Source: Escherichia coli
GTDB taxonomy: Bacteria; Pseudomonadota; Gammaproteobacteria; Enterobacterales; Enterobacteriaceae
Reading direction: 5' to 3' (one strand)
Length of the DNA: 64,000 nucleotides
Assembly (NCBI RefSeq): GCF_048403405.1
Contig: NZ_CP183129.1
The translations under genes were made by a program, and so were the position numbers. Below are positions 28,771-33,407 of the stretch, piece by piece (the first letter of the stretch is position 1; each line of letters starts with the position of its first letter). The notes beneath the pieces are model-generated. The model made no database searches, was not told the DNA's origin, and worked only from the letters and a program-made list of their open reading frames with translations.

Positions 28771-29015
28771 TAGCAATACTCTTCTGATTTTGAGAATTGT
28801 GACTTTGGAAGATTGTAGCGCCAGTCACAGAAAAATGTGATGGTTTTAGTGCCGTTAGCGTAATGTTGAGTGTAAACCCTTAGCGCAGTGAAGCATTTAT
28901 TAGCTGAACTACTGACCGCCAGGAGTGGATGAAAAATCCGCATGACCCCATCGTTGACAACCGCCCCGCTCACCCTTTATTTATAAATGTACTACCTGCG
29001 CTAGCGCAGGCCAGA

Positions 29016-29200
29016 AGAGGCGCGTTGCCCAAGTAACGGTGTTGGAGGAGCCAGTCCTGTGATAACACCTGAGGGGGTGCATCGCCGAGGTGATTGAACG
29101 GCTGGCCACGTTCATCATCGGCTACAGGGGCTGAATCCCCTGGGTTGTCACCAGAAGCGTTCGCAGTCGGGCGTTTCGCAAGTGGTGGAGCACTTCTGGG
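29016..29200 (+). ncRNA. Lysine riboswitch (L-box) in the lysC leader
   Basis: Leader contains conserved L-box segments AGAGGCGC, GGAGGAGCC and TGCATCGCCGAGGTGA about 100-280 nt upstream of the lysC ATG. Boundaries are approximate. Confidence 0.7.
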
Positions 29201-29294
29201 TGAAAATAGTAGCGAAGTATCGCTCTGCGCCCACCCGTCTTCCGCTCTTCCCTTGTGCCAAGGCTGAAAATGGATCCCCTGACACGAGGTAGTT

Positions 29295-30644
29295 ATGTCT
29301 GAAATTGTTGTCTCCAAATTTGGCGGTACCAGCGTAGCTGATTTTGACGCCATGAACCGCAGCGCTGATATTGTGCTTTCTGATGCCAACGTACGTTTAG
29401 TTGTTCTCTCGGCTTCTGCTGGTATCACTAATCTGCTGGTCGCTTTAGCTGAAGGACTGGAACCTGGCGAGCGATTCGAAAAACTCGACGCAATCCGCAA
29501 TATCCAGTTTGCCATTCTGGAACGTCTGCGTTACCCGAACGTTATCCGTGAAGAGATTGAACGTCTGCTGGAGAACATTACTGTTCTGGCAGAAGCGGCG
29601 GCGCTGGCAACGTCTCCGGCGCTGACAGATGAACTGGTCAGCCACGGCGAGCTGATGTCGACCCTGCTGTTTGTCGAAATCCTGCGCGAACGCGATGTTC
29701 AGGCACAGTGGTTTGATGTACGTAAAGTGATGCGTACCAACGACCGATTTGGTCGTGCAGAGCCAGATGTAGCCGCGCTGGCGGAACTGGCCGCGCTGCA
29801 GCTGCTCCCACGCCTCAATGAAGGCTTAGTGATCACCCAGGGATTTATCGGTAGCGAAAATAAAGGTCGGACAACGACGCTTGGCCGTGGAGGCAGCGAT
29901 TATACGGCAGCCTTGCTGGCGGAGGCTTTACACGCATCTCGTGTTGATATCTGGACCGACGTCCCGGGCATCTACACCACCGATCCACGCGTGGTTTCCG
30001 CAGCAAAACGCATTGATGAAATCGCGTTTGCCGAAGCGGCAGAGATGGCAACTTTTGGTGCAAAAGTACTGCATCCGGCAACGTTGCTACCCGCAGTACG
30101 CAGCGATATCCCGGTCTTTGTCGGCTCCAGTAAAGACCCACGCGCAGGTGGTACGCTGGTGTGCAATAAAACTGAAAATCCGCCGCTATTCCGCGCGCTG
30201 GCGCTTCGTCGCAATCAGACTCTGCTCACTTTGCACAGCCTGAATATGCTGCATTCTCGCGGTTTCCTCGCGGAAGTTTTCGGCATCCTCGCGCGGCATA
30301 ATATTTCGGTAGACTTAATCACCACGTCAGAAGTGAGCGTGGCATTAACCCTTGATACCACCGGTTCAACCTCCACTGGCGATACCTTGCTGACGCAATC
30401 TCTGCTGATGGAGCTGTCTGCACTATGCCGGGTAGAAGTGGAGGAAGGTCTGGCGCTGGTCGCGTTGATTGGCAATGACCTGTCAAAAGCCTGCGGCGTT
30501 GGCAAAGAGGTATTCGGCGTACTGGAACCGTTCAACATTCGCATGATTTGTTACGGCGCATCCAGCCATAACCTGTGCTTCCTGGTGCCCGGCGAAGATG
30601 CCGAGCAGGTGGTGCAAAAACTGCATTTTAATTTGTTTGAGTAA
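29295..30644 (+). CDS. lysC: Lysine-sensitive aspartokinase III
   Basis: MSEIVVSKFGGTSVADFDAMNRSADIVLSDANVRLVVLSASAGITN... 449 aa with C-terminal ACT domains. Confidence 0.95.
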   Translation: MSEIVVSKFGGTSVADFDAMNRSADIVLSDANVRLVVLSASAGITNLLVALAEGLEPGERFEKLDAIRNIQFAILERLRYPNVIREEIERLLENITVLAEAAALATSPALTDELVSHGELMSTLLFVEILRERDVQAQWFDVRKVMRTNDRFGRAEPDVAALAELAALQLLPRLNEGLVITQGFIGSENKGRTTTLGRGGSDYTAALLAEALHASRVDIWTDVPGIYTTDPRVVSAAKRIDEIAFAEAAEMATFGAKVLHPATLLPAVRSDIPVFVGSSKDPRAGGTLVCNKTENPPLFRALALRRNQTLLTLHSLNMLHSRGFLAEVFGILARHNISVDLITTSEVSVALTLDTTGSTSTGDTLLTQSLLMELSALCRVEVEEGLALVALIGNDLSKACGVGKEVFGVLEPFNIRMICYGASSHNLCFLVPGEDAEQVVQKLHFNLFE

Positions 30645-31170: not shown

Positions 31171-32043
31171 TTAACGCCCCTTCTTTTTACGCCCCGGCGA
31201 GGTAAAACGCTTACCGTTGGACGCCGGGCGACCGCCTTTTTCCGCCGTTTTTTCCATCTTAACGACTGGACGTTTGATGCCCGCCGTTTTCGGTTTGGCC
31301 TTCGTTTTAGGTTTTGCCTCGGAAGAGGAATTTTCGATGAGCTTAAAGAGGTCGATTAACTCATCGTCAGTTAAATCGCGCCACTCACCCAGCGGAATGC
31401 CGCTTAAGCTGACGTTCATAATGCGCGTACGTTCCAGCTTTTTCACTTCGTAACCAAAGTGCTCGCACATGCGCCGGATCTGACGGTTCAGCCCCTGCAC
31501 CAGGGTAATGCGGAAGACAAACGGCGCTTCTTTTTTGACTTTGCACTTTTTCGTCACCGTCCCGAGGATCGGCACCCCCGCCCCCATACCACGAATAAAT
31601 TCATCGGTAATCGGTTTATCGACCGTCACCAGATACTCTTTCTCATGATCGTTACCCGCACGGAGGATCTTATTCACCAGATCGCCGTGATTGGTGAGGA
31701 AAATCAGCCCCTGGGAGTCTTTATCCAGGCGGCCAATCGGGAACACGCGTTTGCTGTGGTTAACGAAATCGACAATGTTATCGCGCTCGCCATCTTCGGT
31801 GGTGCTGACAATACCGACGGGCTTGTTCAGGGCGATAAGTACCAAATCTTCGGCTTCCCGAGGCTCAATCAACTGACCGTTTACTTTCACAACGTCGCCG
31901 GGTTTCACCTGATCGCCAATGGTGGCTCGCTTGCCATTAAGGAACACATTGCCTTGCTCGATATAGCGATCCGCTTCGCGGCGTGAGCAAATTCCGCTTT
32001 CGCTGATGTATTTATTTAAACGGACTGATGAGTCGGGCAGCAT
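31171..32043 (-). CDS. rluF: 23S rRNA pseudouridine synthase F
   Basis: [39 protein letters not shown]... with S4 and RluA-type catalytic domains and a Lys-rich tail; 290 aa. Confidence 0.9.
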
Positions 32044-32390
32044 AAATTCTCCTGTAAAACGCGGAATATACCGTACCTCTTAGCGGGGAAAAACAGGGTT
32101 ATGCGGCAACGTCGAAATTAAATGTGATCTGCCACGCCTTTTATCACAAAAGTGTCTCCGGAAGTACGATGCAAATTTGCCTGGCAAAATAAGGATAATC
32201 AACATATTACGAATCGCTGCACACCTGTGCTGATGACTACTACGCAGAGAAACAAATGTGCAAGAGAAAGCGCTATTTCTCCCCATGCAAAGAGTGAAAA
32301 ATCGCTTTGAAAGGCCATCATGATGGGGTTATATCAGATCAAGCGGTGAGAAAGCGTATTTGCACAAATGTGCAGAACCAGGAGGCGGCA

Positions 32391-33338
32391 ATGGAAAACA
32401 GTGACGATATCCGTTTGATTGTGAAGATTGCCCAACTCTATTACGAACAGGATATGACGCAGGCGCAAATCGCGCGCGAACTGGGTATTTACCGCACCAC
32501 CATCAGCCGCTTGCTTAAACGAGGCCGCGATCAGGGAATTGTCACCATCGCCATCAACTATGACTACAACGAAAATCTCTGGCTGGAGCAGCAACTGAAG
32601 CAAAAGTTTGGCCTGAAAGACGTTGTGGTGGTGTCGGGAAATGATGAGGATGAAGAGACTCAACTGGCGATGATGGGGTTACACGGCGCGCAACTGCTGG
32701 ATCGCTTGCTGGAGCCTGGCGATATTGTCGGTTTTTCCTGGGGTCGCGCGGTGAGCGCACTGGTTGAAAACTTGCCGCAGGCGGGGCAATCGCGGCAGTT
32801 AATCTGCGTACCAATTATTGGCGGACCGTCCGGTAAACTCGAAAGCCGCTATCACGTAAACACATTAACCTACAGCGCGGCAGCGAAGCTGAAAGGGGAA
32901 TCGCATCTCGCAGATTTTCCGGCTCTGCTGGATAACCCCTTAATTCGTAATGGGATCATGCAGTCTCAGCACTTTAAAACCATCTCTGCCTACTGGGATA
33001 ATCTGGATGTCGCCCTGGTGGGAATTGGCTCACCGGCCATTCGCGACGGCGCTAACTGGCATGCGTTTTATGGTGGTGAAGAGAGTGACGACCTGAATGC
33101 CCGCCAGGTTGCTGGCGATATTTGCTCGCGCTTTTTTGATATTCACGGCGCAATGGTTGAAACGAATATGAGCGAAAAAACACTCTCTATCGAAATGAAT
33201 AAATTAAAGCAGGCGCGGTATTCCATTGGCATTGCCATGAGTGAAGAAAAATACAGCGGAATTGTTGGTGCACTGCGTGGAAAATATATTAATTGTCTGG
33301 TAACGAATAGCAGCACAGCTGAACTATTACTGAAATAA
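32391..33338 (+). CDS. sorC: SorC-family transcriptional regulator of the sorbose operon
   Basis: MENSDDIRLIVKIAQLYYEQDMTQAQIARELGIYRTTISRLLKRGRDQGIV... (HTH plus sugar-binding domain); ATG at 32391 preceded by AGGAGG; 28-codon track extension trimmed. Confidence 0.8.
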   Translation: MENSDDIRLIVKIAQLYYEQDMTQAQIARELGIYRTTISRLLKRGRDQGIVTIAINYDYNENLWLEQQLKQKFGLKDVVVVSGNDEDEETQLAMMGLHGAQLLDRLLEPGDIVGFSWGRAVSALVENLPQAGQSRQLICVPIIGGPSGKLESRYHVNTLTYSAAAKLKGESHLADFPALLDNPLIRNGIMQSQHFKTISAYWDNLDVALVGIGSPAIRDGANWHAFYGGEESDDLNARQVAGDICSRFFDIHGAMVETNMSEKTLSIEMNKLKQARYSIGIAMSEEKYSGIVGALRGKYINCLVTNSSTAELLLK

Positions 33339-33407
33339 AAATCTTCCCGATGTTTACCGTAATAAAAATTACGGCGGGTCCCTATTATCTAAAATCAGGA
33401 GTCTGTT

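What the first reader, a model, noticed from the sequence alone, without database searches (positions are those of the whole stretch)
32355..32390. Short inverted repeat directly upstream of sorC as a candidate SorC operator
tgcaca-aa-tgtgca (two 6 bp arms, about 32362-32375) sits about 15 bp upstream of the sorC RBS and start. SorC-family regulators typically autoregulate at palindromic operators in their own promoter. The sorC-rluF intergenic region also contains a CRP-like half-site pair (tgtgatctgccacg, about 32127-32140).
Basis: inference. Interest (0 to 1): 0.3.

Follow-up and report, generated by a model that had tools for sequence, protein, structure and literature searches.

The report
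Conserved SorC operator before sorbose operon
The short palindrome just upstream of sorC is very probably the main DNA site where the sorbose regulator SorC binds to control its own operon, and it is one of several related sites in a conserved control region; this is an ordinary kind of feature, but it seems not to have been mapped experimentally.

Summary
It lies 5 bp before the sorC Shine-Dalgarno sequence and 16 bp before the ATG. A 6+6 repeat of this kind is not beyond chance on its own (P about 0.43). Three other lines of evidence support it. It is the most conserved 14-bp stretch of the rluF-sorC intergenic region across 24 non-redundant enterobacterial orthologues. A second palindrome (GCACA-N3-GTGC, 32218-32231) sits exactly 143 bp upstream in nearly all species, with a half-site at 32252-32262. 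The same TTGCAC half-site lies upstream of SorC homologues in Firmicutes and Chloroflexi. Its geometry (TTGCAC-N4-GTGCAG) matches the B. subtilis DeoR half-operator, and SorC keeps the two DeoR arginines reported to contact DNA bases. The best conserved sigma-70-like promoter (-35 at 32307, -10 at 32330) puts the repeat at about +20 to +33, a repressor position. No copy lies between sorC and sorD. The CRP-like site is conserved only in its left half, and the E. coli copy is at chance level. This is a new member of a known kind, of modest interest.

The parts
32361..32374 (.). Box O1: perfect inverted repeat TGCACA-AA-TGTGCA, the finding itself and the proposed primary SorC operator
   Evidence: It is identical in 25 of the 28 sequences compared (window plus 27 enterobacterial orthologues) and is the most conserved 14-bp window of the intergenic region (0.991).
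32359..32376 (.). Extended conserved element TTTGCAC-AAAT-GTGCAG(a/g). Read as TTGCAC-N4-GTGCAG, it has the 16-bp geometry of the B. subtilis DeoR left half-operator.
   Evidence: 13 of the 41 invariant columns of 32120-32390 fall here. The DeoR operator ATTGAACAAAATTTCAAT comes from PMC11229326.
32218..32231 (.). Box O2: second palindrome TGCACA-CC-TGTGCt. Across species GCACA-N3-GTGC is conserved and the spacer is free.
   Evidence: It starts exactly 143 bp upstream of O1 in 24 of the 27 orthologous loci, and 144 bp in Serratia.
32249..32262 (.). Box O3: half-site (a)CAAATGTGCAA, right half only in E. coli, 112 bp upstream of O1. In Kluyvera it is a full palindrome, TGCACAAACGTGCA, at -101.
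   Evidence: (D14).
32143..32156 (.). Box B: symmetric variant aTCACAAAAGTGTC (gACACAAAAGTGTC in most species). It may be a weak SorC box or the site of another factor.
   Evidence: (D2).
32120..32141 (.). CRP-like 22-mer AAATGTGATCTGCCACGCCTTT. The left half matches the consensus perfectly and is conserved; the right half is weak. It marks the upstream edge of the conserved sor control region.
   Evidence: for conservation, including in the Serratia, Pantoea and Entomohabitans loci (L018, L019, L022), whose DNA upstream of this block does not align with the rluF-adjacent loci. One search shows the E. coli copy is at chance level.
32197..32209 (+). IHF-core-like AATCAACATATTA (WATCAANNNNTTR), preceded by an A-rich tract
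   Evidence: conserved AATCAR-N4-TTA; 5 matches in 64 kb, 2.65 expected.
32296..32312 (+). Predicted UP-like A-tract GAAAAAT (32296-32302) and -35 hexamer TTGAAA (32307-32312)
   Evidence: best conserved sigma-70-like promoter in all 27 aligned sequences, window included; block G. Prediction only.
32330..32335 (+). Predicted -10 hexamer TATATC with a 17-bp spacer, inside the nearly invariant block TGGGGTTATATCAGATCA (32324-32341). The predicted TSS is about 32342.
   Evidence: No experimental TSS was found.
32380..32385 (+). sorC Shine-Dalgarno AGGAGG. In most other species a GGAG directly abuts the repeat (TGTGCAGGAG).
32391..33338 (+). sorC, a SorC-family regulator with an N-terminal HTH and a sugar-binding domain. 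Residues 1-46 are identical to K. pneumoniae SorC (PDB 2W48).

Best explanation
The repeat is the core of the primary, high-affinity operator (O1) for SorC, the regulator encoded by the first gene of the sorCDFBAME operon. One dimer of SorC DNA-binding domains (HTH type, SorC/DeoR subclass) would bind the two TTGCAC half-sites, which are spaced as in the B. subtilis DeoR half-operator. O1 lies between the predicted promoter (-35 TTGAAA, -10 TATATC, TSS about 32342) and the ribosome-binding site, at about +20 to +33. Without sorbose, bound SorC would block transcription of sorC and of the whole operon, which is negative autoregulation. SorC is a tetramer with two pairs of DNA-binding domains. 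A second palindrome (O2) is held exactly 143 bp upstream, with a half-site (O3) at -112. The second pair of domains therefore probably contacts O2/O3. This would loop out the promoter during repression, or leave SorC upstream of the promoter to activate once sorbose is present, or both. Shown here: the site's existence, its extreme conservation, its recurrence, its co-occurrence with the regulator across phyla, and its geometric match to a solved family operator. Inferred: actual binding, the TSS, the roadblock mechanism and the looping.
For: (1) O1 is the most conserved 14-bp window of the intergenic region in 24 non-redundant orthologous regions, while its flanks diverge. (2) Within about 6.9 kb around sorC, GCAC-N4-GTGC occurs only in the sorC upstream region in every enterobacterial locus. 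In 24 of the 27 orthologous loci the second box lies 143 bp from O1 (Serratia 144; Kluyvera 101). In the 64-kb window the 14-mer with up to 2 mismatches is found only at these two places. (3) The motif travels with the regulator. Three Firmicute homologues (43-48% identity) share the recognition-helix sequence YRTTISR and carry TGCACAATTGTGC-type boxes upstream, paired at 19-20 bp. Chloroflexi homologues carry GTGCAATTGCAC. TGCAC/GTGCA is enriched in the 200 bp upstream of the 17 non-enterobacterial homologues (25 observed, 5.5 expected, Poisson about 1e-9). (4) TTGCAC-AAAT-GTGCAG has the same 6-4-6 layout as the DeoR left palindrome TTGAAC-AAAA-TTTCAA. SorC keeps both arginines (YRTTISRLL against SRPTVSRLL) that are reported to contact DeoR operator bases. 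(5) SorC is reported to be both repressor and activator of the operon, and a tetramer whose two DNA-binding domain pairs can bind two separate sites (PMC2943609; PMC12817954). (6) The only sigma-70-like element conserved in all 27 aligned sequences lies just upstream of O1. (7) Kluyvera lost the PTS genes but kept the sorC-like gene together with the boxes.
Against: There is no binding experiment, and no TSS is available to me. The primary papers (Woehrl 1990, Wehmeier 1994, de Sanctis 2009) are not held. The predicted -10 (TATATC) lacks the usual final T, so the promoter assignment and the +20 to +33 position are uncertain. Unlike DeoR, CggR and the Firmicute homologues, O1 has no partner box about two helical turns away. 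The spacer AAAT and the flanks of O1 are invariant, whereas the spacer of O2 varies freely. This hints at an extra constraint on O1, for example at the RNA level. The 143 bp spacing equals 13.6 turns at 10.5 bp per turn, which is not an integer number.
Confidence: 0.82

Rival explanations
1. The repeat acts as an RNA hairpin in the sorC 5' leader. It would tune translation or mRNA stability of the regulator, instead of or in addition to serving as a DNA operator.
For: The RNA can form a 7-bp stem with a 4-nt loop (-8 kcal/mol, z = -3.3). In most species the 3' arm abuts or overlaps the GGAG Shine-Dalgarno sequence. The spacer ('loop') and flanks are invariant, unlike at O2.
Against: The stem shows no compensatory or wobble variation at all in the window and 27 orthologues. 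The same sequence motif, not merely complementarity, recurs upstream of the predicted promoter at O2/O3 and in other phyla. Some of those copies have a zero-length spacer (GCACAATTGTGC), which suits a dimeric protein site and not a hairpin. Rfam gives no match. In E. coli the predicted fold does not pair the Shine-Dalgarno sequence with the hairpin.
Confidence: 0.1
2. The site belongs to a different transcription factor. One candidate is CytR, which recognises TGCAA/TTGCA octamers together with CRP. Another is some unidentified global regulator.
For: TTGCA/TGCAA cores resemble the CytR half-sites GTTGCATT and AATGYAAC quoted in PMC5137460. A CRP-like site exists in the same region.
Against: The match to the CytR octamers is poor (TTTGCACA matches GTTGCATT at 5 of 8 positions). 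There are no tandem CRP sites flanking O1. The box co-occurs with SorC homologues in Firmicutes and Chloroflexi, and box type tracks the recognition-helix sequence.
Confidence: 0.04
3. It is a chance palindrome with no function.
For: A single perfect 6+6 inverted repeat is expected by chance in a region of this size (P about 0.43). Three other perfect repeats occur nearby.
Against: It is invariant across enterobacterial genera whose flanking sequences have diverged. It is duplicated at a fixed spacing. It is conserved across phyla.
Confidence: 0.01

Closest known systems
[quoted passage not shown]
   Same: It has the same class of DNA-binding domain and a near-identical recognition helix, with both base-contacting arginines conserved. 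It has the same palindrome layout, with 6-bp arms starting TTG, a 4-bp A/T spacer and 16 bp overall. The regulator is a tetramer built as a dimer of dimers.
   Different: The DeoR operator is a compact 39-bp unit with two half-operators about two turns apart that overlaps -35, and DeoR is a pure repressor encoded outside the operon. O1 has no partner at about 20 bp. Its partner palindrome is 143 bp away. It lies downstream of the predicted promoter. SorC is also an activator and is the first gene of its operon.
B. subtilis CggR operator of the gapA operon (SorC/CggR subfamily; PMC2943609, PMC11229326)
   Same: The regulator is the first gene of the operon it represses. The operator lies downstream of the TSS (+32 to +77), comparable to the predicted +20 to +33 here. 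Binding by the tetramer is cooperative.
   Different: CggR has a different, winged-helix DNA-binding domain, a different motif (CGGGAC...GTC) and two adjacent half-operators.
Loop-forming sugar regulons with separated operators (AraC O2-I1, GalR OE-OI, E. coli DeoR); comparison from general knowledge
   Same: Two operators more than 100 bp apart bracket a promoter. Regulation is dual positive and negative (as with AraC). A possible architectural-protein site and a CRP-like site are present.
   Different: Looping by SorC has not been demonstrated, and the protein family is different. The comparison is an analogy only.
K. pneumoniae sor operon regulation by SorC (Woehrl, Wehmeier and Lengeler 1990, PMID 2277638; structure 2W48)
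   Same: This is the orthologous system. Residues 1-46 of the DNA-binding domain are identical. Klebsiella and Raoultella orthologues carry the identical O1.
   Different: I could not read these papers. A 2010 review-level statement says that operators in the family had been identified only for DeoR and CggR.

Membership tests
Operator of a SorC/DeoR-subfamily regulator | A cognate SorC-family regulator (HTH DNA-binding domain plus sugar-binding domain) is encoded at the locus | tested here: met
   Pfam PF04198 Sugar-bind (1.4e-80) plus N-terminal HTH matches. The protein is an orthologue of K. pneumoniae SorC, PDB 2W48 (1.9e-183), and aligns with DeoR 8R7Y over both domains.
Operator of a SorC/DeoR-subfamily regulator | A palindromic half-operator sized for one DNA-binding domain dimer (about 16 bp, TTGnAC arms, A/T spacer) | tested here: met
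   TTGCAC-AAAT-GTGCAG compares with the DeoR OL sequence TTGAAC-AAAA-TTTCAA. This is a sequence comparison only.
Operator of a SorC/DeoR-subfamily regulator | A second half-operator about two helical turns away, so that one tetramer binds both | tested here: not met
   No box lies within about 19-22 bp on either side of O1 in the enterobacterial alignment. The feature is met in the three Firmicute homologues, at 19-20 bp. In enterobacteria the partner palindrome is 143 bp upstream.
Operator of a SorC/DeoR-subfamily regulator | The motif co-occurs with the regulator across taxa and tracks the recognition-helix sequence | tested here: met
   All loci with the helix YRTTISR (27 enterobacterial orthologues plus the window, and 3 Firmicutes) carry TGCACAAWTGTGC-type boxes. 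Chloroflexi with SRVKVYR carry GTGCAATTGCAC. Enrichment is 25 observed against 5.5 expected.
Operator of a SorC/DeoR-subfamily regulator | The position overlaps or lies just downstream of the regulated promoter | tested here: inconclusive
   The best conserved sigma-70-like element predicts a TSS at about 32342, which puts O1 at +20 to +33. No experimental TSS was found.
Operator of a SorC/DeoR-subfamily regulator | Direct, effector-sensitive binding by the purified regulator | not testable with these tools
   This needs EMSA, footprinting or ChIP.
   The left 11 bp, AAATGTGATCT, match perfectly and are conserved. The right core is ACGCC, 2 of 5 (ACACC in many species). The E. coli copy has 3 core mismatches, which is chance level.
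   The centre, 32130.5, is about -211.5 from the predicted sor TSS. It is about -72.5 from a rluF TSS that I predict only from a minus-strand TATATT. Both TSSs are inferred.
Structured RNA leader element | Base pairing maintained by compensatory substitutions | tested here: not met
   The stem columns are invariant, so there is no covariation. Rfam gives no match. The sorC-sorD hairpin, by contrast, does show compensatory changes.

The most novel reading that the evidence does not exclude
SorC's long-known but unexplained double role as repressor without sorbose and activator with it may rest on a conserved, phase-locked nucleoprotein architecture spanning about 270 bp. The elements would be a high-affinity operator in the leader (O1), a second palindrome at a fixed 143 bp (101 bp in Kluyvera, which is 143 minus 42, or four turns at 10.5 bp per turn), a half-site, an IHF-like bend site and a CRP-like site. 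A SorC tetramer would loop out the promoter in the absence of sorbose. On induction it would release O1 while staying at the upstream boxes to activate transcription. In addition, the TTGCAC half-site would be an ancient recognition code shared by this SorC clade across Proteobacteria, Firmicutes and Chloroflexi.
Probability: 0.3. Interest if true: 0.5.

Novelty: new member of a known kind. Interest (0 to 1): 0.32.

Why it matters
SorC gave its name to a large family of sugar-responsive regulators. According to the accessible literature (PMC2943609), however, operators have been defined only for DeoR and CggR (and later LsrR). A precise, testable operator map would allow direct EMSA, footprinting and structural work on how one tetrameric regulator both represses and activates. 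The map here comprises O1 at 32361-32374, O2 at 32218-32231, a half-site at 32252-32262, and candidate promoter, IHF and CRP elements. The sor operon is also enriched in high-risk pathogenic E. coli lineages (PMC12817954), so its control region has some applied interest. The result is still the expected kind of feature, an autoregulatory palindromic operator, and not a surprise.

Tried and rejected
(1) An upstream promoter with -10 GATAAT at 32194-32199. It is not conserved (CAGAAT in most species), has no -35, and ranks low in the cross-species promoter scan. The block reads better as an IHF core.

(2) The consensus promoter scan finds nothing in the intergenic region. This fits a weak, activator-dependent promoter.

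(3) CytR as the binding protein: poor octamer match and wrong taxonomic distribution.

(4) An analogy with the LsrR box: the published LsrR box sequences (AACAAT, AAGATTTAA) do not resemble the SorC box, so I dropped it.

(5) An Rfam search of 32000-32500 gave no hit.

(6) An operator in the sorC-sorD gap: none in the window or in any locus that extends past sorC.

(7) A partner box about 20 bp from O1: a weak AGCAAATATGTGAT lies 15 bp upstream in the Klebsiella, Mangrovibacter and Serratia loci only. It is not conserved, so I rejected it.

(8) The literature. The key papers (PMID 2277638 and 19232357) are not held. The Acta D paper on the DNA-binding domain complex was not found. No TSS data for sorC turned up, and no RegPrecise or operator statement was found.

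(9) The CRP consensus with up to 3 mismatches over 22 bp gave no hit. The core pattern gave chance-level counts.

Full report
CONTEXT. The window is E. coli chromosome. rluF runs on the minus strand (31171-32043). A 347-bp intergenic region follows, then sorC (ATG 32391, stop 33338), then sorD, F, B, A, M, E and pepE. An identical intergenic region occurs in 2872 of 5426 complete E. coli genomes. The sorC product has an HTH plus a PF04198 sugar-binding domain. It is the orthologue of K. pneumoniae SorC (PDB 2W48), and residues 1-46 are identical.

THE OBSERVATION. It ends 5 bp before the AGGAGG Shine-Dalgarno sequence and 16 bp before the ATG. On its own it is unremarkable. Perfect 6+6 repeats with 0-8 bp spacers occur about 1.1 times per 347 bp in this window. 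In shuffles of the region, 43% contain at least one. Three other perfect repeats lie in the same intergenic region.

The repeat becomes significant through recurrence. The 14-mer with up to 2 mismatches occurs only twice in 64 kb, at 32218-32231 (TGCACACCTGTGCT) and 32361-32374, against 3.9 expected for the whole window. An exact 11-mer copy, ACAAATGTGCA, lies at 32252-32262.

COMPARATIVE EVIDENCE IN ENTEROBACTERIA. A scan of one genome per species returned 44 loci encoding SorC relatives. Twenty-seven are enterobacterial, from Escherichia, Pseudocitrobacter, Citrobacter, Klebsiella, Raoultella, Mangrovibacter, Serratia, Pantoea, Cedecea, Entomohabitans, Enterobacter and Kluyvera. All but three show sorCDFBAM; the exceptions are the two Kluyvera loci and one locus that ends just after sorC.

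The element TTTGCACAAATGTGCAG is identical in 25 of the 28 sequences compared (window plus 27 orthologues). Kluyvera has one spacer change and Serratia one flank change. The sequence on both sides diverges. In 24 regions less than 95% identical to each other, the 14-mer at 32361 is the most conserved 14-bp window of the whole intergenic region (0.991). Thirteen of the 41 invariant columns of 32120-32390 lie in 32359-32376.

A second palindrome, GCACA-N3-GTGC, lies exactly 143 bp upstream in 24 of the 27 orthologous loci (144 in Serratia). Its half-sites are invariant and its spacer varies freely. Within about 6.9 kb around sorC, GCAC-N4-GTGC occurs only in the sorC upstream region in every enterobacterial locus. 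Most loci have exactly these two boxes. Two have only O1 under the exact pattern, and Entomohabitans has a third box.

Kluyvera has an 11-bp deletion. Its full second palindrome is at -101, which is 143 minus 42, or four turns at 10.5 bp per turn. No box lies in the sorC-sorD gap in the window or in any locus that extends past sorC.

EVIDENCE ACROSS PHYLA. Three Firmicute homologues (43-48% identity) regulate non-sor genes but share the helix sequence GIYRTTISR. All carry the box upstream of their own gene. Terrilactibacillus and Paenibacillus have TTGCACAATTGTGC, a -10 element, then a half-site 19 bp on. Pseudalkalibacillus has TTGCACAATTGTAC and TGTACATTTGTGCAA 20 bp apart, abutting the Shine-Dalgarno sequence.

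Chloroflexi homologues (25-29% identity, helix SRVKVYR) carry one or two GTGCAATTGCAC-type palindromes within 60 bp of the start. TGCAC/GTGCA is enriched in the 200 bp upstream of the 17 non-enterobacterial homologues, with 25 observed against 5.5 expected (Poisson about 1e-9). The motif therefore follows the regulator, not the sorbose genes. Kluyvera agrees: it keeps a sorC-like gene and its boxes but has a shikimate-dehydrogenase-like gene in place of the PTS genes.

FIT TO THE FAMILY. The solved DeoR left half-operator is ATTGAACAAAATTTCAAT, bound by one dimer of DNA-binding domains (PMC11229326). Read as TTGCAC-AAAT-GTGCAG, O1 has the same 6-4-6 layout and the same 11-bp separation between the symmetric G and C. 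SorC aligns with DeoR as YRTTISRLL against SRPTVSRLL. This keeps both arginines (DeoR R34 and R39) that are reported to contact bases and to be conserved in the subfamily.

The family rule of two half-operators about two turns apart holds in the Firmicute homologues. It does not hold for O1 in enterobacteria.

PROMOTER AND MECHANISM (INFERRED). The generic promoter scan found nothing in the intergenic region. I scored every aligned position in all 27 aligned sequences (window included) with a simple sigma-70 matrix. One element stood out: -35 TTGAAA (32307-32312), a 17-bp spacer, and -10 TATATC (32330-32335), with a mean of 5.8 bits and a minimum of 3.2. An A-tract (32296-32302) lies upstream of it.

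This predicts a TSS near 32342 and places O1 at +20 to +33, between promoter and ribosome-binding site. That resembles the CggR operator at +32 to +77. On this numbering O3 is centred at -86.5, O2 at -117.5, the IHF-like core at -139, box B at -192.5 and the CRP-like site at -211.5.

SorC is reported to repress without sorbose and to activate with it. It is a tetramer whose two pairs of DNA-binding domains can bind separate sites. I therefore propose that O1 is the repression site. O2/O3 would serve as the second contact, by looping and/or as the activation site. I found no TSS data, and the weak -10 leaves this step uncertain.

RIVALS. An RNA hairpin is thermodynamically possible (7 bp, -8 kcal/mol). 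It might explain why the spacer and flanks of O1 are invariant. However, the stem shows no covariation. The same sequence recurs upstream of the predicted promoter and in other phyla, sometimes with a zero-length spacer. Rfam finds nothing.

CytR-type recognition fits poorly and cannot explain the Firmicute and Chloroflexi boxes. Chance is excluded by the conservation.

THE CRP CLAIM. The string is at 32123-32136, not 32127-32140. The 22-mer AAATGTGATCTGCCACGCCTTT has a perfect and conserved left half and conserved flanks, but a weak right core. The E. coli copy is at chance level. It marks the upstream edge of the conserved sor control region. It is present even in the Serratia, Pantoea and Entomohabitans loci, whose DNA upstream of this block does not align with the rluF-adjacent loci. 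It lies far from the predicted sor TSS. CRP control is plausible but unproven.

NOVELTY. In the accessible literature, operators in this family are described only for DeoR, CggR and LsrR. The 2025 E. coli sor paper does not analyse the promoter. I could not read the original Klebsiella papers, so prior description of the palindrome cannot be excluded. I rate this a new member of a known kind, of modest interest.

Noticed in passing
window 33357-33374 (sorC-sorD gap): The hairpin CCGTAAT-AAAA-ATTACGG just after the sorC stop codon keeps its pairing through compensatory changes in 18 species (UA/CG, AU/GC and GC/AU at three pairs). It may be an intercistronic terminator, attenuator or processing/stability element that separates regulator expression from structural-gene expression.
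   Followed up: partly
window 32324-32342: The block TGGGGTTATATCAGATCA is almost invariant across genera and includes a GATC (32337-32340) between the predicted -10 and the TSS. It is more conserved than a -10 hexamer alone would need. It could be an additional protein site or involve Dam methylation. This is unexplained.
   Followed up: partly
window 32197-32209: A conserved match to the IHF core consensus (AATCAACATATTA), preceded by an A-rich tract. It lies almost exactly midway between box B (centre 32149.5) and the O3 half-site (centre 32255.5).
   Followed up: partly
window 32143-32156: The conserved symmetric variant of the SorC box (gACACAAAAGTGTc; ACAC/GTGT in place of GCAC/GTGC) lies next to the CRP-like site. 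It could be a weak SorC box or the site of another factor.
   Followed up: partly
L023 and L024 (Kluyvera), positions 2900-5700: Between rluF and pepE, Kluyvera has a sorC-like gene (70% identity) followed by a shikimate-dehydrogenase-like gene and no sorbose PTS genes. It still keeps the SorC boxes and promoter blocks, with an 11-bp deletion.
   Followed up: partly
L036, L037, L040, L045 (Chloroflexi MAGs), 60 bp upstream of position 3001: Distant SorC-family homologues carry one or two GTGCAATTGCAC / TGTGCATTTGCACA palindromes just after a consensus-like promoter (TTGACA...TATTCT/TATCCT). This suggests the same half-site used in an everted arrangement.
   Followed up: no
window 32065-32070 (minus strand) and 32120-32141: A conserved minus-strand TATATT may be the rluF -10 element. 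The CRP-like site would then be centred about -72.5 from that predicted TSS, a classical class I distance. The site could therefore serve rluF, the sor operon or both.
   Followed up: no
window 32176-32188, 32264-32281, 32315-32326: Three other perfect 6+6 inverted repeats lie in the same intergenic region (TTTGCC-T-GGCAAA, GAGAAA-N6-TTTCTC, CCATCATGATGG). None is conserved in perfect form across species. They illustrate that a short palindrome alone is weak evidence.
   Followed up: yes
window about 29000-29210 (upstream of lysC, 29295-30644): An identical E. coli record annotates a lysine riboswitch upstream of lysC. This is a known feature unrelated to the finding.
   Followed up: no
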